From a virus (lineage: Duplodnaviria > Heunggongvirae > Uroviricota > Caudoviricetes), in the IMG/VR virus record IMGVR_UViG_2602041549_000007, positions 1 through 23,428 of that record: DNA of 23,428 bases; one strand, given 5' to 3'. Shown piece by piece: positions 568-8,113 of the stretch. Made by a program: the position numbers and the translations under genes. How positions within the stretch are numbered: the first letter of the stretch is position 1; the number at the start of each line of letters is the position of its first letter. The notes below the pieces were generated by a model. It did no database searches and was not told where the DNA came from. It worked only from the letters and a program-made list of their open reading frames with translations.

Positions 568-1560
568 ATGGGTTTTTCATCAGCCCGAAATTTGGGAAGG
601 GACATATCGGCAGGATTTTCCCCACCACGTCGCATGCCGATTTCGGAGGCTGTTAAAAAATTCATGCGTGTTCCCAAGGGGGCTGGTAACTCGGTGCCAT
701 GGGATCCTGAACTGACACCCTACATCATTGAGCCCATGAACTGCCTGGCATCGCGTGAATACGATGCGGTGATTTTTGTTGGTCCTGCGCGAACAGGGAA
801 GACCATTGGTCTGATCGATGGATGGATTGTCTATACCATCGTTTGCGATCCTTCGGACATGCTCGTTGTGCAGATGACCGAAGATAAGGCCCGCGAGCAT
901 TCTAAAAAGCGCCTCGACAGAACGTTCAGAAGCAGTGCGGCGGTAAAGAAAAGAATGAGTCCACGTCGTAACGACAATAATGTCCATGATAAGACGTTCA
1001 GGGATGGCTCGTTCCTTAAAATTGGTTGGCCCTCGGTCAACATTATGTCGTCGTCGGATTACCGGTTTGTCGCCTTAACCGATTACGACCGTTTTCCGGA
1101 GAATATCGACAGCGAGGGTGATGGTTTCTCCCTGGCCTCAAAACGTACCACCACATTTATGTCCGCCGGGATGACTCTGGTGGAGAGCTCGCCGGGACGT
1201 GACATCTGCGACAGCAAATGGCGACGTAAGTCGCCTCATGAAGCGCCACCGACGACTGGGATTCTTTCCCTTTACAATCGTGGTGACCGCCGCCGCTGGT
1301 ACTGGCCATGTCCGCACTGCGGTGAATATTTTCAGCCAGCCATGGATGCCATGACCGGCTACCGTAATGAACCGGATCCCTTTAAAGCCAGTGAGGTGGC
1401 GTATCTACTTTGCCCGCACTGCAGCGGCATTATCACTGCGGAGAAAAAGCGTGAGCTCAATAGTGCAGGAGTCTGGTTGCGTGAAGGGCAGGTCATTGAT
1501 CGTAACGGCAACGTTTCCGGTGAACCGCGCCGCTCCCGTATCGCCAGTTTCTGGATGTAG
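568..1560 (+). pseudogene. Terminase large subunit (lambda gpA-like), N-terminal 330 codons; gene interrupted at 1557/1558 by the inserted element and resuming at 11899
   Basis: AGGAGG 5 nt upstream of ATG 568; CPHCG motif region and ...GVWLREGQVIDRNGNVSGEPRRSRIASFWM align with lambda gpA ...GIWTRDGILWFSSSGEEIEPPDSVTFHIWT; the ORF stops at TAG 1558-1560 where lambda gpA continues. Confidence 0.85.
1551..1557. repeat. Left copy of 7-bp direct repeat CTGGATG flanking the insert (putative att core/overlap)
   Basis: Identical heptamer at 11892-11898, exactly where the terL reading frame resumes. Confidence 0.6.
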
Positions 1561-1721
1561 GGTACATTTCTTACCTGTTTTTATGTTCTGGTGTCGTTTT
1601 GTAGTCTTTTCAATGAGTTGTGATTTTTTGTGTTTCCTCTCTTTACTTGATAATGAGTTAGTTTATCGCTTGTTATCGACTTGAAAGGACTACATGACGG
1701 ACTAAAAAATGAGGGCGATAG

Positions 1722-2960
1722 ATGCCGGTAAAGCCATTAACCGTGACTGAAGTTAAGGGAATGAAACCACGTGAAAAGGACTATGCCGTTTATGATGGGT
1801 TCGGTTTATTGCTGAATGTGAGTAAAGCTGGTGGGAAAGTGTGGCGTTTCCGTTATAGCCATCCGATAACGAAGAAACGGCAGACATACACGATAGGGCG
1901 TTTTCCTGAATTCTCACTCGCGGAAGCACGGGAAGTACGTGATGAACTTCGGCGAATGATTGCACGTGGAGTTGATCCAGTGACAGAGAAGAAAAATCGT
2001 AAAATTGAGATGTCACTAAAAAATCTACAAACATTTGAAGCTGTTGCTAATGCATGGATCGCTTTTAAAAAGGGATCGGAATTGCGGAAACCTACGCTGT
2101 ATAATATCGAATATGAAGTATACAAATATCTTGTTCCTTTCTTTGGTAAGTACAGCATAGAGAAAATTACAGCGCCAGTAGCTATTAATGCTCTGGATGC
2201 CGTATCCGATAAGAATGCGTTGCAAAAAAAATTAATATCAAGATTAAATGAAATTATGAATTACGCTGTAAATTGTGGAGCATTGAAAACGAATCCATTA
2301 CTTAAGATAAAAACTGCATTCACAGGAAAGAAAAATAAATCATTAGCTGCACTACCTGTTGAAAGATTGCCTGAATTTCTGAGTTGGTGGGATAGTGTGC
2401 CTCATAAGTATCAAATAGCTCACAATGCACTTTTATTCCAGATATTGACAATGGTCAGGCCAGGTGAGGCGATTAAAGCAGAGTGATCCGAGATTGATTT
2501 TGATTCTGGCTTGTGGATTATCCCCGCGCATAAAATGAAATGCCATCGTGAACATGTTGTGCCTCTCTCATCACAGGCTATTAGAATCCTAAGAACAATG
2601 CAGGAAATAAAAAGAGGGCGTTATATATTTTTTTCCTCCAGAACAAAAGATGCTCCTATGGGAAAGAATACTATCAATACCCCAATTGCTGCCAGCAAGT
2701 TCAAAGGGATTGTAACGTTACACGGTTTTCGTTCGATGTGGAGTACGCTTTTAAATGAGGAGGGTTTTAACCCTGATGTTATTGAGGCTGCATTAGCACA
2801 TAAAAGTGGTGATAAAATAAGAGATATTTATAATAGAACTACTTATTTAGAACAACGCAAAATTATGATGCAATGGGTAGGAGATTTTTTTGATGAGGCG
2901 AGAAAAGGGGTAATTAATAGATCCGGTGGTAAGAAAGGTTTGAGAATAGTAAATGGTTGA
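1722..2960 (+). pseudogene. int: P4-type tyrosine integrase interrupted by an in-frame TGA (2484-2486) at a conserved Trp codon
   Basis: ORFs 1722-2486 and 2511-2960 are in the same frame; read-through gives ...RPGEAIKAE*SEIDFDSGLWIIPA, matching the P4/CP4-57 integrase motif ...AEARWDEIDLD..W.IPA; C-terminal HGFRS and LAH box present; GAGGG RBS before ATG 1722. Confidence 0.85.
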
Positions 2961-2972
2961 GGAGTTCAGCAA

Positions 2973-3176
2973 ATGAATACCAATGAAGATATTTTATTTA
3001 CTAAAGACGTAATGAAAATTTTGCGCTATGGGGCAATGAGCGCATTCATCAATTTCTGGAAAGATGAAAATAATGGTTTTCCTCAACCGTTCAGAATTGG
3101 GCGGCGGCATACCTGGCACCGTAGAGATGTAGAGGCATGGTTAGATAAACAACGAGAACAGGCCAATCCCCACTAA
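2973..3176 (+). CDS. alpA: AlpA-family DNA-binding regulator / excisionase-like protein
   Basis: 67 aa immediately downstream of int; pattern ..FP.P...G.R..W...DVE.WL typical of the AlpA/phage regulatory family; GGAG RBS. Confidence 0.7.
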   Translation: MNTNEDILFTKDVMKILRYGAMSAFINFWKDENNGFPQPFRIGRRHTWHRRDVEAWLDKQREQANPH

Positions 3177-3190
3177 TAATATCTTTCATA

Positions 3191-3216
3191 CCCCGCACGC
3201 AATGCGGGGTTTTTTG
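3191..3216 (+). terminator. Rho-independent terminator after alpA
   Basis: CCCCGCA-cgcaa-TGCGGGG hairpin followed by TTTTTT. Confidence 0.7.
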
Positions 3217-3233
3217 TATGTGAGGTAAAAACG

Positions 3234-3812
3234 ATGAATAAAAATATTGCCGTGACGGGCAAGGGGTACGCTCGTTCAGTAAAAAAATTCTGCGATATTC
3301 GTGATCTTGTCGTTCTGCGCTTTAATGGCGTGGATGTTCGTGTGGTGTATCTGAACGGCGATCCGTGGTTTGTTGCAAACGATGTTTGTGCTGCGCTGGA
3401 ACTAACCAATTCGCGTACGGCGTTGCAGATGCTTGATGATGATGAAAAGGGAGTAAATTTAACTTACACCCCAGGAGGAAATCAGAATATGAGCATTATC
3501 TCTGGGTCAGGTTTCTACAAACTAATAGCCCGCAGCCGCAAAGCAACGACGCCTGGCACATTTGCTCATCGTTTCAGTAACTGGGTATTCAGAAATGTGA
3601 TACCGGGTATCAGAGAAACAGGGGCTTATGGTATCCCATGGGGTGCATTACAGGATTTTTCCCGCCGTAAAGAGCAATATCAAATAAGTGCCAGCGAGAA
3701 GGGGAGGGGGCTACAGGCATGTAAGCGCAAAAAGCGTGAGCTGGAGGAAGAAGAAAAAAGGCTGATACGTGAATATCAGCCTGAGTTTTACTTTGGTAAC
3801 CGCATTCAGTGA
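3234..3812 (+). CDS. Bro-N domain protein (phage antirepressor-like)
   Basis: 192 aa; ...VRVVYLNGDPWFVANDVCAALELTNSRTALQMLDDDEKG is a typical Bro-N motif; GAGG RBS 8 nt upstream. Confidence 0.8.
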   Translation: MNKNIAVTGKGYARSVKKFCDIRDLVVLRFNGVDVRVVYLNGDPWFVANDVCAALELTNSRTALQMLDDDEKGVNLTYTPGGNQNMSIISGSGFYKLIARSRKATTPGTFAHRFSNWVFRNVIPGIRETGAYGIPWGALQDFSRRKEQYQISASEKGRGLQACKRKKRELEEEEKRLIREYQPEFYFGNRIQ

Positions 3813-3841
3813 CAAAACAAAGGCGACCGGGGGCGGTCGCC
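3812..3841 (-). terminator. Hairpin terminator for the leftward transcript (between convergent genes)
   Basis: Perfect 8-bp stem GGCGACCG/CGGTCGCC with GGGG loop at 3822-3841; the T-rich tract is on the minus strand (plus-strand ACAAAACAAA, 3812-3821). Confidence 0.55.
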
Positions 3842-3905
3842 AATGGGAAAGCACTAAACATAAGCACGGGGATGATAGCCGCTATCAGGCTGGTGGGCAA
3901 TGCAA

Positions 3906-4094
3906 TCAGTCTGGTTCAGTTCGTTGCCATACCTGCAATGAGCGCGTTTCCCTGTACTCTTTAAGGAATTGCTCAAGGGCAAAAGCACATGGCGCGAATC
4001 TTTCTGATTCATGCTCTATCTTTCTGCGCCGTCTTTTCCGTGCCGGTGATAATGTTTTGGTCAATTCTTTATCGGTCATTGTGTTGTCCTGCAT
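3906..4094 (-). CDS. Hypothetical small basic protein (62 aa), downstream of the RHH gene on the same strand
   Basis: ORF lies between the RHH gene and the minus-strand terminator; no convincing Shine-Dalgarno; contains an RKRRRRK tract. Weak call. Confidence 0.3.
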   Translation of the reverse strand: MQDNTMTDKELTKTLSPARKRRRRKIEHESERFAPCAFALEQFLKEYRETRSLQVWQRTEPD

Positions 4095-4136
4095 AGCAAT
4101 GCGCCGTAATACCTTACACCACGGCGCTGATGGTGA

Positions 4137-4316
4137 TTACTCTGGTTCTTTGGCCTTGCGGCGCTGGCGGCGTTTGATCTCGCCTTCAAGTGCCGAAACG
4201 ATAAATTGCCCAGTGCTTTCGCCTTCTTCCTTTAAATTTTCTACAGCGTCAGCTATTGCATGGGGGACTCGTGCCTCAAGTTTTTTGGATTTTCCATTAA
4301 CTGCTTTCGTTGCCAT
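4137..4316 (-). CDS. Ribbon-helix-helix (CopG/Arc-like) DNA-binding protein, putative satellite repressor
   Basis: Start taken at internal ATG (MATKAVNGKSKKLEARVPHAIADAVENLKEEGESTGQFIVSALEGEI...) with AAGGA RBS; beta-strand plus two-helix pattern typical of RHH; the tracked 117-aa ORF is over-extended. Confidence 0.65.
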   Translation of the reverse strand: MATKAVNGKSKKLEARVPHAIADAVENLKEEGESTGQFIVSALEGEIKRRQRRKAKEPE

Positions 4317-4338
4317 ATCTGATTTCCTTGTTATTAGG

Positions 4339-4421
4339 TGGCTGACAGTATACACACAAGAAAATGGAAAAACACTATTGACGTGGCTGACACCTGTTAC
4401 TAGTATAGTGGCTGACACCTT
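4339..4421. promoter_or_regulatory. Divergent promoter/operator region with three copies of GTGGCTGACA(CCT)
   Basis: Copies at 4339-4348, 4383-4395, 4409-4421; rightward promoter TTGACG (4378-4383), 17-nt spacer, TAGTAT (4401-4406) overlapped by copies 2 and 3; candidate leftward promoter TTGTGT-17-TAATAA with copy 1 in its spacer. Confidence 0.5.
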
Positions 4422-4515
4422 TATTGAGGTAATCGATGAAAAGACAAAGCCCGCAGGTGCTACCAACACCAACGGGCTTCTAACCACCAACGATAGAAAG
4501 AGTATCGAGGTAGCT

Positions 4516-4722
4516 ATGAGAAATCATACCACACACCCGCAAGGGCGGGACTCGCACAACCTGAATAAATACATCTGGCGTTTTATCGCCCTGAGCACGG
4601 CACAACCGCGCGTGATTACCATTGAGGCCACTAGCGAACAGGAAGCACGCCAGCAATCCCCGGCTGGCTGCGTGATGGTATTCGCCGCCCGTATTCGTCA
4701 GGGGGTACGCCATGTGCAATAA
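4516..4722 (+). CDS. Hypothetical protein, first gene of the rightward early operon (possibly Ash/Icd-like; family uncertain)
   Basis: 68-codon ORF with GAGGTAGCT RBS; corresponds to the 3' end of the artifactual 317-aa ORF 3769-4722. Confidence 0.5.
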   Translation: MRNHTTHPQGRDSHNLNKYIWRFIALSTAQPRVITIEATSEQEARQQSPAGCVMVFAARIRQGVRHVQ

Positions 4723-4948
4723 CACCCGTCCGGACGCAGCCGCCGAAGCAATCAAAACACTGATTGATGCGCTGATTGATATTTCTGTTATCGCGGACAG
4801 GGCGCATAAGCACGCTACCAGTGAAACAGAATATACCAGGGCTTTCGTTCCTCGCTCACTGGTTGCTATGCGGATTATCGCTGATATGGCACTGAATGAG
4901 GCCAGCAAAATTATCATGGCTGATATGGAGGTGGTGAGCCATGCATAA
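4712..4948 (+). CDS. Hypothetical protein (78 aa)
   Basis: Start overlaps the previous stop (ATGTGCAATAA); same strand, operon-like packing. Confidence 0.5.
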   Translation: MCNNTRPDAAAEAIKTLIDALIDISVIADRAHKHATSETEYTRAFVPRSLVAMRIIADMALNEASKIIMADMEVVSHA

Positions 4949-5153
4949 TCATGAAACGCACTTACCTGTAGTGCTGAATGTGCCATCAGATTATACGGGT
5001 CGCGTACTGGTGTATCTGGGAAAAGGCCGGGTTAGATGCCAGTGCCGTTTAATGGAAAACGAATTTATCAGCACTCTTGCGGGATTTTCTGAAATGCTCA
5101 CTAAATCGGGTGTTAGTGCAGACCAGTTATGCGGGGGCGATTATGCGAAATAA
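4941..5153 (+). CDS. Hypothetical protein (70 aa)
   Basis: Overlapping start/stop with the preceding ORF; no recognisable domain. Confidence 0.45.
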   Translation: MHNHETHLPVVLNVPSDYTGRVLVYLGKGRVRCQCRLMENEFISTLAGFSEMLTKSGVSADQLCGGDYAK

Positions 5154-5361
5154 ACGTGATATTGAAGACCTGGCATTTGAAGCCCTGCACTCTGCGAAAA
5201 AGATCAGGGAAGTCGTCAATATGTGGATGAACAGCCTTAGCACCGATAAATCCGATAGCAGAGAAGAAATTCTTATTTCTTTGTTGTTAGACCTGGCAAA
5301 TACACAGGTTTCTCTGACATCTGATATTGAACTCGCCGCTAAAAAGCAGCCTCTGGAGTAA
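5143..5361 (+). CDS. Hypothetical protein (72 aa)
   Basis: ATG 5143 overlaps the upstream stop (ATGCGAAATAA); the tracked ORF from 5077 is judged over-extended. Confidence 0.45.
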   Translation: MRNKRDIEDLAFEALHSAKKIREVVNMWMNSLSTDKSDSREEILISLLLDLANTQVSLTSDIELAAKKQPLE

Positions 5362-5366
5362 AAACC

Positions 5367-5666
5367 ATGAAAAAGAAAAATTCTGGCATTACTGCCAGCG
5401 GCCTCTCTCGGCCTGAAATCCGCCCAGGCGATATTTTCCGGGATAACTACGGCGGCACGGTAACGATTAAAAGCGTGGCGGGACGGTGCGTTACTTACCG
5501 CCGTGATGGGTACGGCTATGACTGCGTGATGCCTGTTTATCAGTTCCGGCGTGATTTTTCACTGATACAGGCCACACCACGCAAACAGCCCACCAGCAAC
5601 GCCAGGGCACGGGCGAACATTCAGAAAATGAAAAACATGATTAACGCATTCAGGGGCAAAAAATGA
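5367..5666 (+). CDS. Hypothetical protein (99 aa)
   Basis: GGAG RBS; stop overlaps the start of the replication gene. Confidence 0.5.
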   Translation: MKKKNSGITASGLSRPEIRPGDIFRDNYGGTVTIKSVAGRCVTYRRDGYGYDCVMPVYQFRRDFSLIQATPRKQPTSNARARANIQKMKNMINAFRGKK

Positions 5667-7078
5667 AACTGGCACCGAACTTAAAAAAACAGCCACACGA
5701 CAAAATGACCGAAGTCATTATTTTTGCGGGTAGTGATGCCTGGGCGCACGCGAAACAATGGCAGGAGCAGGACGGGCGACTTGCTGGCGATAACGTCCCG
5801 CCTGTATGGCTGGGAGACAGCCAGCTTGACGAACTGGCAGACCTTAAAATCATCGACGATGGTCGCTATTGTGTCCGGCTGTACAAGGCAGGCCACATCA
5901 AGCCGTCAAATATTAATGCCATCGGGCAAAAGCTGGCGACGGCAGGTGTACGGGATGCGAATTATTACCCCGAGGGAATGCACAGCCAGAAGCGGGAGGA
6001 GTGGCGCGAATATCTGGAGCGTGAGCGCCAGAAAAAAATGTCCGGAGAGATACCGGAGGAAGAAAAAAACGAACAGCGAAAAACCACGCTACCAATGAGT
6101 ATTGGATCTGCAGGGTACGACACACAGCTTGATTATGTCGTTAAGGGCGTGATTCCGGCTAATTCGTTGTGCAGCACATACGGCGCGAGCGGTTCCTATA
6201 AATCGTTCCTTGCGTGTTCCTGGGCGTGTCATGTTGCCACTGGTCGCCACTGGGGAGGCCGCAGGGTGGCGCATGGTTCGGTGATGTATGTTGTCGGTGA
6301 AGGTGGCATTGGTGTCCCCCGTCGTATCAAGGCATGGGAAATCGTTAATGATGAACGGGTGAAAAATCTGTACCTGGTAAACCGCCCGATTTTTCCGGCA
6401 GCCCCGCTTGATGTTGATGAAATGGTCATCGCTTCCCGCCAGGTTGAACGGGAAACGGGTAAACCGGTACGCATGATTATTCTGGATACGCTGGCGCGTT
6501 GCTTTGGCGGTAATGATGAAAATGACGCGCGGGATATGGGGGCGTTTATCCGTGGATGTGACGAACTGAAACGCCGCACAGGGGTCACGGTGCTGGTGGT
6601 TCACCATTCCGGCAAGGATGAAACAAAGGGAGCGCGTGGTTCCAGTGCATTTCGTGCATCTCTGGACGCTGAATACCGTATTCGCCGGGAAGGTGCAGAC
6701 AGCGAAGCTCTGGTTATCTCCTGCACCAAAATGAAGGACGCGGAGGAACTGAAAGAGGCTGCATATGATTTACGTGTGGTGGAGCTTTTTACCGACACTG
6801 ACGGGGAGTTAATCACGTCGCTGGTGGTTGTGGATAAGCCGCGCCCGCCTGTTGAACTGGAACGCATCGAGGAAGCCGGGAACAAGACGGAGAATCATGC
6901 CGCGCTATGGGGATGTATCCGTTCACGCACACAGCGTGGCGATAAATGCACTATTCCGTTGTTGCGCGATGATATGAAAAAGCTGGGGTATGAGATGAAA
7001 CACTTCCGGCGCTGGCTGTACAAGCTGGAAGGTGATGGCGTTATTGCTATTGACGGTGATGACGTGCGCCCACTGTAA
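5663..7078 (+). CDS. Replication protein, RepA/DnaB-like AAA ATPase (helicase) with C-terminal putative origin-binding domain
   Basis: 471 aa; Walker A-like GASGSYKS, Walker B-like MIILD, VVHHSGKD motif typical of the AAA_25/RepA helicase family; iteron array starts at its stop codon. Confidence 0.75.
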   Translation: MKLAPNLKKQPHDKMTEVIIFAGSDAWAHAKQWQEQDGRLAGDNVPPVWLGDSQLDELADLKIIDDGRYCVRLYKAGHIKPSNINAIGQKLATAGVRDANYYPEGMHSQKREEWREYLERERQKKMSGEIPEEEKNEQRKTTLPMSIGSAGYDTQLDYVVKGVIPANSLCSTYGASGSYKSFLACSWACHVATGRHWGGRRVAHGSVMYVVGEGGIGVPRRIKAWEIVNDERVKNLYLVNRPIFPAAPLDVDEMVIASRQVERETGKPVRMIILDTLARCFGGNDENDARDMGAFIRGCDELKRRTGVTVLVVHHSGKDETKGARGSSAFRASLDAEYRIRREGADSEALVISCTKMKDAEELKEAAYDLRVVELFTDTDGELITSLVVVDKPRPPVELERIEEAGNKTENHAALWGCIRSRTQRGDKCTIPLLRDDMKKLGYEMKHFRRWLYKLEGDGVIAIDGDDVRPL

Positions 7079-7271
7079 AAAGTGGGTAGTAAAAGTGGGG
7101 AGTGTGGGGAATTTAACAAAATTGAAACGTGATTCCCCACTTTCCCACCTGTATATACCCCAAAAAGTGGGGAGTAAAAAACACATTGAAAAACAGTACA
7201 TTAGAGTCACAAAAAAAAGAAGTGGGGAGACGTTGGGTAATTTCAAAAAGTGGGGAACAAAAGTGGGGAGT
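7078..7271. repeat. Iteron array (AAGTGGGGAG), putative satellite replication origin
   Basis: Direct copies at 7078-7088 (variant), 7091-7101, 7165-7175, 7219-7229, 7248-7258, 7261-7271, one inverted copy at 7134-7143 and a degenerate copy at 7103-7110, separated by A-rich tracts. Confidence 0.6.
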
Positions 7272-7279
7272 GGTGAGGA

Positions 7280-7531
7280 ATGACCAGAAAAACCAGAGAT
7301 AAAACAGCGCCAAAATATCGCGCATTAGACATGACAGAGCACGCCTTAAAGGTGGCAATCAGAACAATAGACCGCCATGCCGGAGAAGGATACGCGAAAA
7401 CACATCCCGAACTGATAAGCGCATTCATGACAGCGGCGGCGGCAAACTTTGCCACGCTGACAGAGCTGGAGATAGCCGAAGCGGAACAGGTGACAACCAT
7501 CAACGTTAAAACCGGAGAGCAGACAGCATGA
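7280..7531 (+). CDS. Hypothetical protein (83 aa)
   Basis: ORF immediately downstream of the iterons; stop overlaps the start of the SSB-like gene. Confidence 0.5.
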   Translation: MTRKTRDKTAPKYRALDMTEHALKVAIRTIDRHAGEGYAKTHPELISAFMTAAAANFATLTELEIAEAEQVTTINVKTGEQTA

Positions 7532-7950
7532 CAGCACAGATAGCGGCTTACGGGAGGCTGGCGACTGACCCGCAGTTAAAGACCACCAGCAAAGGGACAC
7601 AAATGGCGATGGCGAGTATGGCGGTCCCACTGCCATGCAGTCAGGCAGATGACGGAACGGCGACGATGTGGTTATCCGTCCTGGCGTTTGGCAGACAGGC
7701 CGATGCGCTGGCCAGACACCACAAAGGCGAACTGGTGAGCGTGGCGGGTAACATGCAGGTAAGCCAGTGGACAGGCCAGAACGGGGAAACGCGGCAGGGC
7801 TGGCAGGTTATCGCAGACAGTGTAATCAGTGCGCGAACGGCGCGACCGGGCGGCAAAAAAGGCCAGCAGGGCCAGGCTACTGACGCACTGAACAGGGCAA
7901 AACAACAGGCGGGGAATGATGATCCGTACGGGGATAACATACCGTTTTAA
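7528..7950 (+). CDS. Single-stranded DNA-binding protein-like (divergent SSB)
   Basis: 140 aa; OB-fold-like N-terminal region with the SSB pattern (...W..V..FG..A......KG..V...G.....W.......R...) and C-terminal DDPYGDNIPF resembling the SSB tail DDDIPF. Confidence 0.65.
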   Translation: MTAQIAAYGRLATDPQLKTTSKGTQMAMASMAVPLPCSQADDGTATMWLSVLAFGRQADALARHHKGELVSVAGNMQVSQWTGQNGETRQGWQVIADSVISARTARPGGKKGQQGQATDALNRAKQQAGNDDPYGDNIPF

Positions 7951-7965
7951 GCAACGAGTAACAGA

Positions 7966-7989
7966 AGCCGGAGTAATCCGGCTTTTTTA
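7966..7989 (+). terminator. Rho-independent terminator after the SSB-like gene
   Basis: AGCCGGA-gtaa-TCCGGCT hairpin plus TTTTTT. Confidence 0.65.
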
Positions 7990-7990
7990 T

Positions 7991-8062
7991 GGGTCCTTCC
8001 GGTGTAGTGACCTGCCACGGGGCGGGAGCGTCGCGGGAAAAGGCTGGTTTTTGCATTTTCAT
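7991..8062 (+). other. cos site A (lambda-like cosQ-cosN), satellite copy 1
   Basis: GGGTCCTTCCGGTGTAGTGACCTGCCACG GGGCGGGAGCGT CGCGGG matches lambda ...GGGTCCTTTCCGGTGATCCGACAGGTTACG GGGCGGCGACCT CGCGGG (lambda sequence recalled from memory); predicted 12-nt cohesive end 8020-8031. Confidence 0.75.
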
Positions 8063-8113
8063 GGCGGCGGCAGCATGTGTGATAATTTATTGATAATTAA
8101 AAATTATTTCTGC

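What the first reader, a model, noticed from the sequence alone, without database searches (positions are those of the whole stretch)
7078..7271. Iteron array immediately downstream of the replication helicase gene
Six well-conserved direct copies of AAGTGGGGAG plus one inverted and one degenerate copy, embedded in A-rich DNA, begin at the stop codon of the RepA/AAA helicase gene. This is the classic arrangement of a replicon origin bound by its own initiator, here in a satellite.
Basis: partly seen in the sequence, partly recalled or inferred. Interest (0 to 1): 0.5.

Follow-up and report, generated by a model that had tools for sequence, protein, structure and literature searches.

The report
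Satellite replication origin with matched initiator
The repeat cluster is real and is most likely the replication origin of a small phage satellite, bound by the satellite's own helicase; this layout is already known for such satellites, but one amino acid of the helicase tracks one base of the repeats across about 100 relatives.

Summary
Observation confirmed. AAGTGGGGAG (up to 1 mismatch) occurs 7 times in the 23-kb window, all within 7080-7270: six direct copies, one inverted, plus four degenerate copies. The array starts at the rep stop codon and flanks a 76% A+T core (7175-7219).

Interpretation supported. The host element is a 10.3-kb helper-embedded PICI satellite inserted in a prophage terL gene. 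It has the same gene order as EcCICFT073, whose rep-ori segment was shown experimentally to replicate. About 160 related loci keep the same array layout, but all repeat copies change together. Base 6 of the repeat follows Rep residue 447 without exception (98 unique pairs): His or Lys with G, Asn with A, Ser with C. Three further loci add Gly with C. There were at least 9 independent switches. Residue 447 caps the recognition helix of a confidently predicted C-terminal winged helix. The flanking small proteins do not track the repeats.

Most likely mechanism (inferred): Rep binds the iterons, melts the AT-rich core and loads itself as the helicase. This is a new member of the known PICI-type origin class. 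Replication itself was not tested. The residue-to-base code was not found in the papers read here.

The parts
5663..7078 (+). rep: 471-aa initiator-helicase with an N-terminal domain, a RepA/DnaB-like RecA-fold ATPase and a C-terminal winged helix
   Evidence: Pfam AAA_25 E=6e-44 over residues 152-320. phrog_2850 matches full length. The closest solved relative by sequence is the RSF1010 RepA helicase 1g8y, E=5e-5. The Walker A stretch GASGSYKS and the HHSGK stretch are invariant or nearly so in 38 homologues; the motif names are my reading.
5663..6073 (+). Rep N-terminal domain (residues 1-137), shared with the otherwise unrelated Pri-Rep of EcCICFT073
   Evidence: 62% identity over residues 1-137/1-143; the rest of the two proteins shows no similarity. 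AF2 pLDDT 82-93, alpha/beta fold.
6854..7075 (+). Rep C-terminal winged-helix domain (residues 398-471), the proposed iteron-binding domain
   Evidence: AF2 model has mean pLDDT 86.7 with elements H-H-H-beta-beta. The top Foldseek hits are mostly winged-helix DNA-binding domains (DtxR, MexR, LexA-DNA complex, Fur, histone H1), with probability 0.9-0.99 and TM 0.6-0.7 but weak E-values.
7001..7003 (+). Codon of His447, the N-cap of the recognition helix and the proposed specificity residue
   Evidence: It is the only Rep column with normalised MI of 1.0 against iteron type; the next best is 0.35. Nucleotide 7001 is the only rep-gene nucleotide with MI of 1.0, while the 75 nt between it and the array reach 0.35 at most. 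The predicted helix covers 448-457.
7080..7111 (+). Left iteron cluster: copies at 7080-7089, 7093-7102 and 7102-7111, the first two starting 13 nt apart
   Evidence: These slots are conserved at offsets 4, 17 and 26 after the stop codon in related loci.
7133..7151 (-). Inverted iteron (7133-7142) and a degenerate inverted copy (7142-7151). Together with the left cluster they form a 29-nt imperfect palindrome.
   Evidence: (inverted repeat I1). The slot at offset 58 on the minus strand is conserved in nearly all related arrays.
7150..7157 (.). Conserved TGTATATA box that is not an iteron; function unknown
   Evidence: A YRTATAYR box lies 56-86 nt (mostly 69-76) after the rep stop in 119 of 136 unique arrays, whatever the iteron class.
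7165..7174 (+). Single direct iteron bordering the AT-rich core
   Evidence: The slot at offset 89 is conserved.
7175..7219 (.). AT-rich core (76% A+T), the proposed DNA-unwinding element
   Evidence: The A+T peak lies at offset 100-140 in 137 unique related arrays, at 71-74% against 50-61% elsewhere in the array. It shares an ACATT...CAGTACATTA stretch with the EcCICFT073 ori core.
7220..7279 (+). Right iteron cluster: 7220-7229, a degenerate copy at 7230-7239, 7248-7257, 7261-7270 and a degenerate copy at 7270-7279 that overlaps the ribosome-binding site of the next gene
   Evidence: The 45-nt unit at 7245-7289 repeats the unit at 7077-7121 at 76% identity.
5367..5666 (+). DUF4222 gene whose end overlaps the rep start. 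It is a conserved neighbour but not the specificity determinant.
   Evidence: Pfam DUF4222 E=2e-24. It is 71% identical to the EcCICFT073 homologue, although the iterons there are unrelated.
7280..7531 (+). 83-aa gene (phrog_1231) downstream of the array. It is not the iteron binder.
   Evidence: It is 73% identical to the EcCICFT073 homologue, although the iterons there are unrelated. MI with iteron type is 0.44 or less.
7528..7950 (+). Satellite-encoded single-strand DNA-binding protein, part of the replication zone
   Evidence: Pfam SSB E=7e-16 and phrog_44.
1558..11898 (+). The whole 10.3-kb helper-embedded PICI satellite, bounded by CTGGATG cores at 1551-1557 and 11892-11898 inside the prophage terL gene
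   Evidence: The terL halves match phrog_15 positions 334-644 and 644-985. The reconstructed empty site is an intact terL at 99.7% identity in E. coli genomes. The same junction occurs in 19 of 5426 genomes.

Best explanation
The array at 7080-7279 is the vegetative replication origin of a PICI-type phage satellite. The protein that binds it is the Rep encoded immediately upstream.

Shown by comparison: Rep's C-terminal winged helix is matched to the 10-nt iterons, and residue 447 at the start of the recognition helix is matched to iteron base 6. In this window that pair is His with G.

Inferred: several Rep molecules occupy the two iteron clusters and the inverted copy. They assemble into the ring expected for a RepA/DnaB-type helicase and open the 45-nt AT-rich core between the clusters (7175-7219). 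The helicase loads itself there without DnaA. Host primase and polymerase then copy the excised satellite, helped by the satellite's own SSB.
For: Clustering: 7 of 7 matches fall within 191 nt, and no shuffle reached 7.

Layout: two iteron sets flank a 76% A+T core directly after the rep stop codon. This is the published definition of PICI origins (PMC6092414).

Positional homology: EcCICFT073 has the order DUF4222 (71% identical), Rep (N-terminal domain 62% identical), a 289-bp iteron region, a small gene (73% identical) and SSB. Its rep-ori segment drove replication, and the rep and ori mutants did not.

Conservation: the array layout is kept in about 160 loci across Enterobacterales, while the iteron sequence changes in all copies together.

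Co-variation: residue 447 against iteron base 6 gives His/G 24, Lys/G 24, Asn/A 42 and Ser/C 8, with no exceptions in 98 unique pairs. Normalised MI is 1.0 against a next best of 0.64. The signal is confined to single positions rather than a linkage block. There were at least 9 independent switches on the tree of the domain itself. Loci fetched afterwards fit: Ser with C in L166, and Gly with C in L165, L167 and L168.

Structure: residues 398-471 are predicted as a winged helix at pLDDT 87, with residue 447 at the N-cap of helix 3.

Helicase: the Walker A and HHSGK stretches are invariant or nearly so, and Rep is related to the RSF1010 RepA helicase.

No DnaA box, IHF site or GATC lies in the array. 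This fits an initiator that is its own helicase.
Against: Nothing here shows replication; the co-variation shows cognate binding only.

This Rep lacks a primase domain, which its 680-aa relatives have (Zn_Ribbon_Prim plus Toprim_3). Priming must therefore come from the host or the helper.

The AF2 model of the ATPase core is partly of low confidence.

Foldseek E-values for the 74-residue domain are weak, 0.08-0.3.

The experimentally tested EcCICFT073 Rep has a different helicase and DNA-binding part and different iterons. The functional evidence therefore transfers by position and layout, not by homology of the binding module.

This copy's integrase carries an in-frame stop, so this particular satellite may be unable to excise.

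The last iterons abut the next gene's ribosome-binding site, so an added regulatory role is not excluded.
Confidence: 0.82

Rival explanations
1. The repeats are Rep-binding operator or roadblock sites. Their main job would be to control transcription running from rep into the 83-aa gene, SSB and the late genes, not to start replication.
For: The array lies inside a block of co-oriented genes with no predicted terminator. The last copies abut the ribosome-binding site and ATG at 7280. Iteron-binding initiators often also regulate transcription (general knowledge of iteron plasmids).
Against: No sigma-70-like promoter was found in or near the array. An AT-rich core flanked by two iteron sets is conserved in 137 arrays, which an operator would not need. 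The region at the same position in EcCICFT073 was required for replication. The downstream gene stays 73% identical where the iterons are completely different. This role could coexist with origin function.
Confidence: 0.1
2. The repeats are a packaging signal (pac or cos accessory site) recognised by the satellite's small terminase.
For: The satellite encodes its own TerS-like protein (10695-11237). Packaging sites can contain short repeats.
Against: The repeats co-vary with a Rep residue 76 nt upstream of the array. terS lies 3.4 kb away. The same array layout follows Rep homologues in loci with different late zones.
Confidence: 0.03
3. The repeats are a by-product of slippage or of a small coding ORF (for example 7032-7283 on the plus strand) and have no binding function.
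For: Several ORFs of 57-107 aa overlap the array in the mechanical ORF list. One relative (L009) carries four extra 13-nt units, which shows that slippage happens.
Against: Indels that are not multiples of three (52 nt in L009, single-base changes in L010 and L015) would break any ORF. The slot positions are conserved across genera while base 6 switches in all copies at once and matches a Rep residue in 98 of 98 pairs. Neutral repeats would not behave this way.
Confidence: 0.02

Closest known systems
PICI replication origins: SaPI ori, and EcCICFT073 ori of Gram-negative PICIs (Fillol-Salom et al. 2018, PMC6092414)
   Same: The origin lies immediately 3' of the initiator gene, with two sets of short iterons flanking an AT-rich core, in a phage satellite. 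The gene order DUF4222, rep, ori, small gene, SSB is the same. The flanking proteins are 71% and 73% identical to those of EcCICFT073, and the Rep N-terminal domain is 62% identical.
   Different: The helicase and DNA-binding part of Rep is a different module: AAA_25/RepA-like plus a winged helix here, against D5_N/DUF5906/Pox_D5 in EcCICFT073. The iterons are unrelated (AAGTGGGGAG against CTGTCTACC). This allele's origin has no experimental test in the papers read here.
Helper-embedded PICIs (Tommasini, Mageeney and Williams 2023, PMC10111431)
   Same: [quoted passage not shown] It has the four ordered zones: integration, Bro, replication and late.
   Different: The insertion site here is in a GpA-type terL (Pfam GpA_ATPase). 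The terL sites found in that paper's text and held supplements are in Terminase_1-type genes (132, 245, 246), and 'Terminase_GpA' does not occur there (one supplementary file was cut when stored).
Satellite phage P4 alpha protein with ori and crr
   Same: One polypeptide combines a helicase with a C-terminal winged-helix origin-binding domain that recognises short iterons. Long relatives of this Rep also carry an N-terminal zinc-ribbon plus Toprim primase. The description of P4 alpha comes from my own knowledge and from PMC6092414.
   Different: The window's Rep has no primase domain. No second iteron cluster like crr exists in the window. The iteron sequence differs. PMC6092414 describes PICI Pri-Rep proteins as only distantly related to P4 alpha.
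RSF1010 (IncQ) RepA helicase with RepC and oriV iterons
   Same: The ATPase core is the closest solved relative by sequence (1g8y, E=5e-5).
   Different: In RSF1010, iteron binding is done by a separate protein, RepC (my own knowledge). Here the DNA-binding domain is fused to the helicase.
Iteron plasmids with Rep_3-type initiators (pSC101, F, R6K, pPS10)
   Same: Repeated initiator-binding sites lie next to an AT-rich unwinding region, and specificity is matched between initiator and iterons.
   Different: There is no Rep_3 or double winged-helix initiator and no DnaA box. The core is 10 nt with 13-nt spacing, not about 20-nt iterons in helical phase. The initiator is itself the helicase.

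Membership tests
PICI-type replication origin | Lies immediately 3' of the replication initiator gene | tested here: met
   The rep stop codon is at 7076-7078 and the first iteron at 7080.
PICI-type replication origin | Two sets of iterons flank an AT-rich region | tested here: met
   The left set covers 7080-7174 and the right set 7220-7279. The core 7175-7219 is 76% A+T. The same holds in 137 related arrays.
PICI-type replication origin | Iterons are specific to the cognate Rep (matched Rep-ori pairs) | tested here: met
   This is comparative evidence, not biochemical. Residue 447 agrees with iteron base 6 in 98 of 98 unique pairs, with at least 9 switches. Three loci fetched afterwards fit the pattern. 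EcCICFT073 has a different Rep module and different iterons.
PICI-type replication origin | The rep-ori segment supports autonomous replication, and ori or rep mutants do not | not testable with these tools
   This was shown only for EcCICFT073, SaPIbov1, SaPI1 and EfCIV583 in the literature.
Gram-negative PICI / helper-embedded PICI satellite | Co-oriented int, alpA-like and rep genes, a size of about 10-20 kb, and no tail or lysis genes | tested here: met
   The element carries int, an AlpA-like HTH, Bro-N, an Icd-like protein, DUF4222, rep, SSB, a protease-capsid fusion and terS within 10.3 kb. The portal, tail and tape-measure genes lie outside it in the helper.
Gram-negative PICI / helper-embedded PICI satellite | Integrated inside a prophage late gene, in the same orientation, with a precise empty site | tested here: met
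   terL is split at phrog_15 position 644. The rebuilt empty site is an intact terL at 99.7% identity. The junction recurs in 19 genomes.
Gram-negative PICI / helper-embedded PICI satellite | Integrase belongs to the HE-PICI integrase clade | not tested
   Only the Pfam Arm-DNA-bind_3 and Phage_int_M domains were seen. No phylogeny was made. The gene carries an in-frame stop here.
Rep_3-type iteron plasmid origin | Initiator of the Rep_3 / WH1-WH2 family | tested here: not met
   Pfam finds only AAA_25 and nothing on the terminal fragments even at E up to 10. The C-terminus is a single winged helix.
Rep_3-type iteron plasmid origin | DnaA boxes next to the iterons | tested here: not met
   TTATNCACA with up to 1 mismatch does not occur in 7050-7330.
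P4 alpha / ori-crr system | Primase, helicase and origin-binding domains in one protein | tested here: not met
   The window's Rep has no primase domain. Long relatives do have Zn_Ribbon_Prim plus Toprim_3.
P4 alpha / ori-crr system | A second cis-acting iteron cluster (crr) is needed | tested here: not met
   No iteron copy with up to 1 mismatch lies outside 7080-7270 anywhere in the window.
RepA/DnaB-like hexameric helicases (AAA_25) | RecA-fold ATPase with Walker A, Walker B and the H-H-S-G-K motif | tested here: met
   AAA_25 E=6e-44. The relevant residues are invariant or nearly so in 38 homologues; the motif assignment is my reading. RSF1010 RepA 1g8y E=5e-5. RadA/Rad51 fold matches. Hexamer formation was not tested.

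The most novel reading that the evidence does not exclude
Residue 447 of the Rep winged helix may act as a one-residue specificity switch: His or Lys reads G, Asn reads A, and Ser or Gly goes with C at iteron base 6. It has flipped at least 9 times together with every iteron copy. This would create mutually orthogonal rep-ori groups among satellites that share hosts and helpers. The selective reason could be to avoid cross-initiation, titration or interference between co-resident satellites. If so, a single H447N change together with G-to-A iterons should be enough to re-target replication.
Probability: 0.45. Interest if true: 0.55.

Novelty: new member of a known kind. Interest (0 to 1): 0.35.

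Why it matters
The finding itself is the expected origin of a PICI-type satellite, so it mainly confirms the annotation. It marks where replication of a widespread E. coli satellite should start; at least 80% of the rep-ori-SSB stretch (5300-8200) is found in 465 of 5426 complete genomes.

The added value is the residue-to-base match. It gives a specific, cheap experiment: swap H447N and swap the iterons. It also gives a way to predict which satellite Rep proteins can fire which origins. That bears on incompatibility between co-resident satellites and on building orthogonal replicons.

Tried and rejected
- A Foldseek search with the whole Rep model returned only RadA/Rad51-type ATPase cores and noise, so the C-terminal domain was modelled separately.
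- A full-text search for the iteron sequences found only unrelated eukaryotic papers. The supplements of PMC6092414 contain neither iteron sequences nor 'RepA', so I could not tell whether this iteron type was drawn in that paper's Fig. 2a.
- Promoter and terminator scans of 6800-7600 found nothing. DnaA-box, IHF and GATC scans of the array found nothing. Rfam and tRNA scans of the window found nothing.
- The ORFs overlapping the array were rejected as coding because relatives carry indels that are not multiples of three.
- The 83-aa protein and the DUF4222 protein were considered as iteron binders. Both were rejected because they stay 71-73% identical in EcCICFT073, whose iterons are unrelated.
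- Simple linkage between the rep 3' end and the array was considered as the cause of the co-variation. It was rejected because the signal sits on nucleotide 7001 alone, while the 75 nt between it and the array reach MI 0.35 at most.
- A possible second contact (iteron base 8 with residues 453 and 448, MI 0.8 and 0.59) is only suggestive and is not claimed.
Full report
**1. The observation**

AAGTGGGGAG with up to one mismatch occurs seven times in the 23,428-base window. All seven lie between 7080 and 7270. Dinucleotide-preserving shuffles of the whole window gave a mean of 1.44 matches and never reached seven.

- Direct copies start at 7080 (one mismatch), 7093, 7165, 7220, 7248 (one mismatch) and 7261.
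- An inverted copy lies at 7133-7142.
- The core GTGGGGA is also exact at 7104-7110.
- Weaker copies lie at 7142-7151 (minus strand), 7230-7239 and 7270-7279.
- A 45-nt unit, made of two iterons starting 13 nt apart plus a degenerate third, occurs at both ends of the array: 7077-7121 and 7245-7289.
- Between the two halves GC falls to 0.32, and 7175-7219 is 76% A+T.
- The rep stop codon (7076-7078) overlaps the A-rich flank of the first copy. The last degenerate copy overlaps the ribosome-binding site of the gene that starts at 7280.

**2. Context**

The window holds a lambdoid prophage late region. It comprises a small terminase, a GpA-type large terminase, a portal, a protease-capsid fusion, tail genes and a tape-measure gene.

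The large terminase gene is split. ORF 568-1560 matches phrog_15 positions 334-644, and ORF 11896-13008 matches positions 644-985. A 10.3-kb element lies between the halves. It carries:

- a P4-type integrase and an AlpA-like HTH protein;
- a Bro-N protein and an Icd-like protein;
- small ORFs and a DUF4222 protein;
- the AAA_25 helicase, then the array, an 83-aa gene and an SSB;
- a second protease-capsid fusion, a second TerS-like gene and a phrog_1561 gene.

The junctions share a CTGGATG core. Joining the two flanks rebuilds an intact terL that exists at 99.7% identity in E. coli genomes. The same terL-integrase junction is present in 19 of 5426 complete E. coli genomes.

This configuration has been published as a helper-embedded PICI, with the same four ordered zones (PMC10111431).

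**3. What is known about such origins**

Fillol-Salom et al. 2018 (PMC6092414) state that in PICIs the region immediately 3' of the initiator gene is the origin. [quoted passage not shown] The EcCICFT073 rep-ori segment kept a temperature-sensitive plasmid alive at the restrictive temperature, while the rep and ori mutants did not.

I fetched EcCICFT073. It has the same local gene order:

| Feature | EcCICFT073 compared with the window |
|---|---|
| DUF4222 protein | 71% identical |
| Rep N-terminal ~140 residues | 62% identical |
| Rest of Rep | unrelated: D5_N / DUF5906 / Pox_D5, against AAA_25 here |
| Non-coding stretch after rep | 289 bp, full of repeats |
| Iterons | CTGTCTACC / GGTAGAYA, unrelated to AAGTGGGGAG |
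| Small gene after the array | 73% identical to the 83-aa protein |
| Next gene | SSB |

The iterons therefore change together with the helicase and DNA-binding part of Rep. They do not change with either flanking small protein. The AT-rich cores of the two origins share a short ACATT...CAGTACATTA stretch.

**4. Comparative test of who binds the repeats**

Eighty IMG/VR loci encode Rep proteins 62-100% identical to the window's. Eighty species-representative genomes across Enterobacterales encode proteins 50-71% identical over residues 138-471.

Nearly all carry an array right after the rep stop with the same slot pattern. The offsets are about 4, 17, 26, 58 (inverted), 89, 144-155, 172, 185 and 195. 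An A+T peak sits at offset 100-140.

The repeat sequence differs between loci, and within a locus all copies, including the inverted one, carry the same variant.

Among 57 unique Rep sequences of the first set, one alignment column was perfectly associated with iteron type. It is residue 447, His with AAGTG-G-GG and Asn with AAGTG-A-GG. Its normalised mutual information was 1.00, against 0.35 for the next best column.

At the DNA level only nucleotide 7001, the first base of that codon, reached 1.0 within the rep gene. The 75 nt between it and the array reached 0.35 at most, and the downstream gene 0.44 at most. The association is therefore confined to single positions and is not a co-inherited block.

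The distant set added two more classes: Lys with AAGTG-G-GGG and Ser with AAGTG-C-GGC. A strict count over both sets gave:

| Residue 447 | Iteron base 6 | Unique pairs |
|---|---|---|
| His | G | 24 |
| Lys | G | 24 |
| Asn | A | 42 |
| Ser | C | 8 |
| any other combination | | 0 |

These are 98 unique pairs. Normalised MI was 1.0 over 80 unique combinations, with a next best of 0.64.

Fitch parsimony needs at least 25 state changes on a helicase-core tree. It needs at least 9 on a tree of the C-terminal domain with residue 447 masked. Loci fetched afterwards fit the pattern: a Salmonella Ser-447 Rep has ten AAGTGCGGC copies, and Gly-447 Reps have AAGTGCG copies.

**5. Structure**

AlphaFold models residues 400-471 with confidence. 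The whole-protein model gives pLDDT 77-94 there, and the domain-only model has a mean of 86.7. The elements are three helices and a beta hairpin, with helix 3 at 448-457.

The best Foldseek matches are mostly winged-helix DNA-binding domains: DtxR, MexR, LexA bound to DNA, Fur and linker histone. Probabilities are 0.9-0.99 and TM-scores 0.6-0.7, but E-values are weak for so short a domain.

Residue 447 is the N-cap of the recognition helix, a position from which side chains commonly reach bases. His or Lys with G and Asn with A agree with common amino-acid-to-base preferences; that statement rests on my own knowledge.

K446, R450, W451, L452, K454 and L455 are invariant, which fits the invariant AAGTG part of the iteron.

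The central domain is a RepA/DnaB-type ATPase. Evidence: AAA_25, RSF1010 RepA 1g8y at E=5e-5, and invariant or nearly invariant residues in the stretches I read as the Walker A and HHSGK motifs. Long relatives add an N-terminal zinc-ribbon and Toprim primase. The window's protein instead has the 137-residue domain shared with EcCICFT073 Pri-Rep.

**6. Mechanism**

Shown by comparison: the array is the cognate binding site of Rep's winged helix, and it occupies the position and has the layout of a proven PICI origin.

Inferred:

- Several Rep molecules bind the two clusters and the inverted copy.
- They assemble the helicase ring and open 7175-7219.
- The helicase loads there without DnaA; no DnaA box, IHF site or GATC is present.
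- Host primase and polymerase, together with the satellite's SSB, then copy the excised element.

Not shown: replication itself, hexamer formation, and the melting site.

**7. Rival explanations**

- **Transcriptional operator or roadblock.** This cannot be fully excluded as an extra role. No promoter or terminator is predicted, an operator would not need the conserved AT-rich core, and the downstream gene is conserved where the iterons are not.
- **Packaging site for TerS.** This does not explain co-variation with a Rep residue.
- **Coding or neutral slippage.** This is contradicted by frame-breaking indels and by the concerted, protein-matched base changes.

**8. Comparison with known systems and novelty**

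The array meets every testable defining feature of a PICI-type origin. It fails those of Rep_3-type iteron plasmids: there is no Rep_3 initiator and no DnaA box. It also fails those of the P4 alpha/ori-crr system: this Rep has no primase domain and the window has no second iteron cluster.

It is best filed as a new member of a known kind: a PICI origin served by a RepA-like helicase fused to a winged helix. The one-residue, one-base match across about 100 unique pairs was not found in the papers I could read. It is a modest, directly testable addition.

**9. Limits**

- All functional claims rest on comparison and literature.
- The integrase of this copy has an in-frame TGA, whereas a relative has an intact 399-aa gene. 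This particular satellite may therefore be immobile, and the helper's terL may be permanently split.

Noticed in passing
window 1551-1557 and 11892-11898 (junctions); terL halves 568-1560 and 11896-13008: The satellite sits inside a GpA-type large terminase gene of a lambdoid prophage. The rebuilt empty site is an intact terL at 99.7% identity in E. coli genomes, and the same junction occurs in 19 of 5426 complete genomes. Helper-embedded PICIs are published (PMC10111431), but the terL sites I found in that paper's text and held supplements are in Terminase_1-type genes. 'Terminase_GpA' does not occur there, so this may be an additional target site.
   Followed up: partly
window 2484-2486: The satellite integrase (1722-2960) is interrupted by an in-frame TGA, while the homologue in E. 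coli EC42405 is an intact 399-aa gene. If the stop is real, this copy cannot excise and the helper's terL stays split.
   Followed up: partly
window 7983-8062 and 10519-10598: An 80-nt direct repeat at 93% identity lies upstream of the satellite's protease-capsid gene and again upstream of its TerS-like gene. It may be a repeated late-promoter or regulatory module. It was not analysed.
   Followed up: no
window 7150-7157: A TGTATATA box lies between the inverted iteron and the next direct copy. A YRTATAYR box is present at a similar offset in 119 of 136 unique related arrays, whatever the iteron class. Its function is unknown; it could be a host-factor site or an early melting point.
   Followed up: partly
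window 5663-6073, compared with L164:9242-9670: The Rep N-terminal domain (residues 1-137) is 62% identical to the N-terminus of the EcCICFT073 Pri-Rep, while the rest of the two proteins belongs to different helicase families. This is a module swap within the initiator gene. The role of the shared domain is unknown.
   Followed up: partly
window 8581-10494 against 14712-16694, and 10695-11237 against 20-559: The satellite carries its own protease-capsid fusion, 57% identical to the helper's. Its TerS-like protein is 49% identical to the helper's over 75 residues. This fits the capture of helper late genes described for these satellites.
   Followed up: partly
L009 and L011, downstream of rep: One relative (L009) has four extra tandem 13-nt iteron units. 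Another (L011) lacks the left half of the array. The array evidently grows and shrinks in iteron-sized steps.
   Followed up: no
window 4374-4420: Two adjacent 22-nt direct repeats (ACTATTGACGTGGCTGACACCT and ACTAGTATAGTGGCTGACACCT) lie in the Bro/Icd zone. They may be a regulator binding site. No Rfam immunity RNA (C4 or isrK) was detected in the window.
   Followed up: no
L085, L096, L105 and L160 (Xenorhabdus and relatives): Arrays reading AAATGAGGAA, with A instead of G at iteron base 3, go with Reps ending the recognition helix in ...KLEN instead of ...KLEQ or ...KLEH. One Xenorhabdus bakwenae genome holds both kinds (L087, L093, L160). This may be a second specificity pair and a case of co-resident satellites with different origins.
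   Followed up: no
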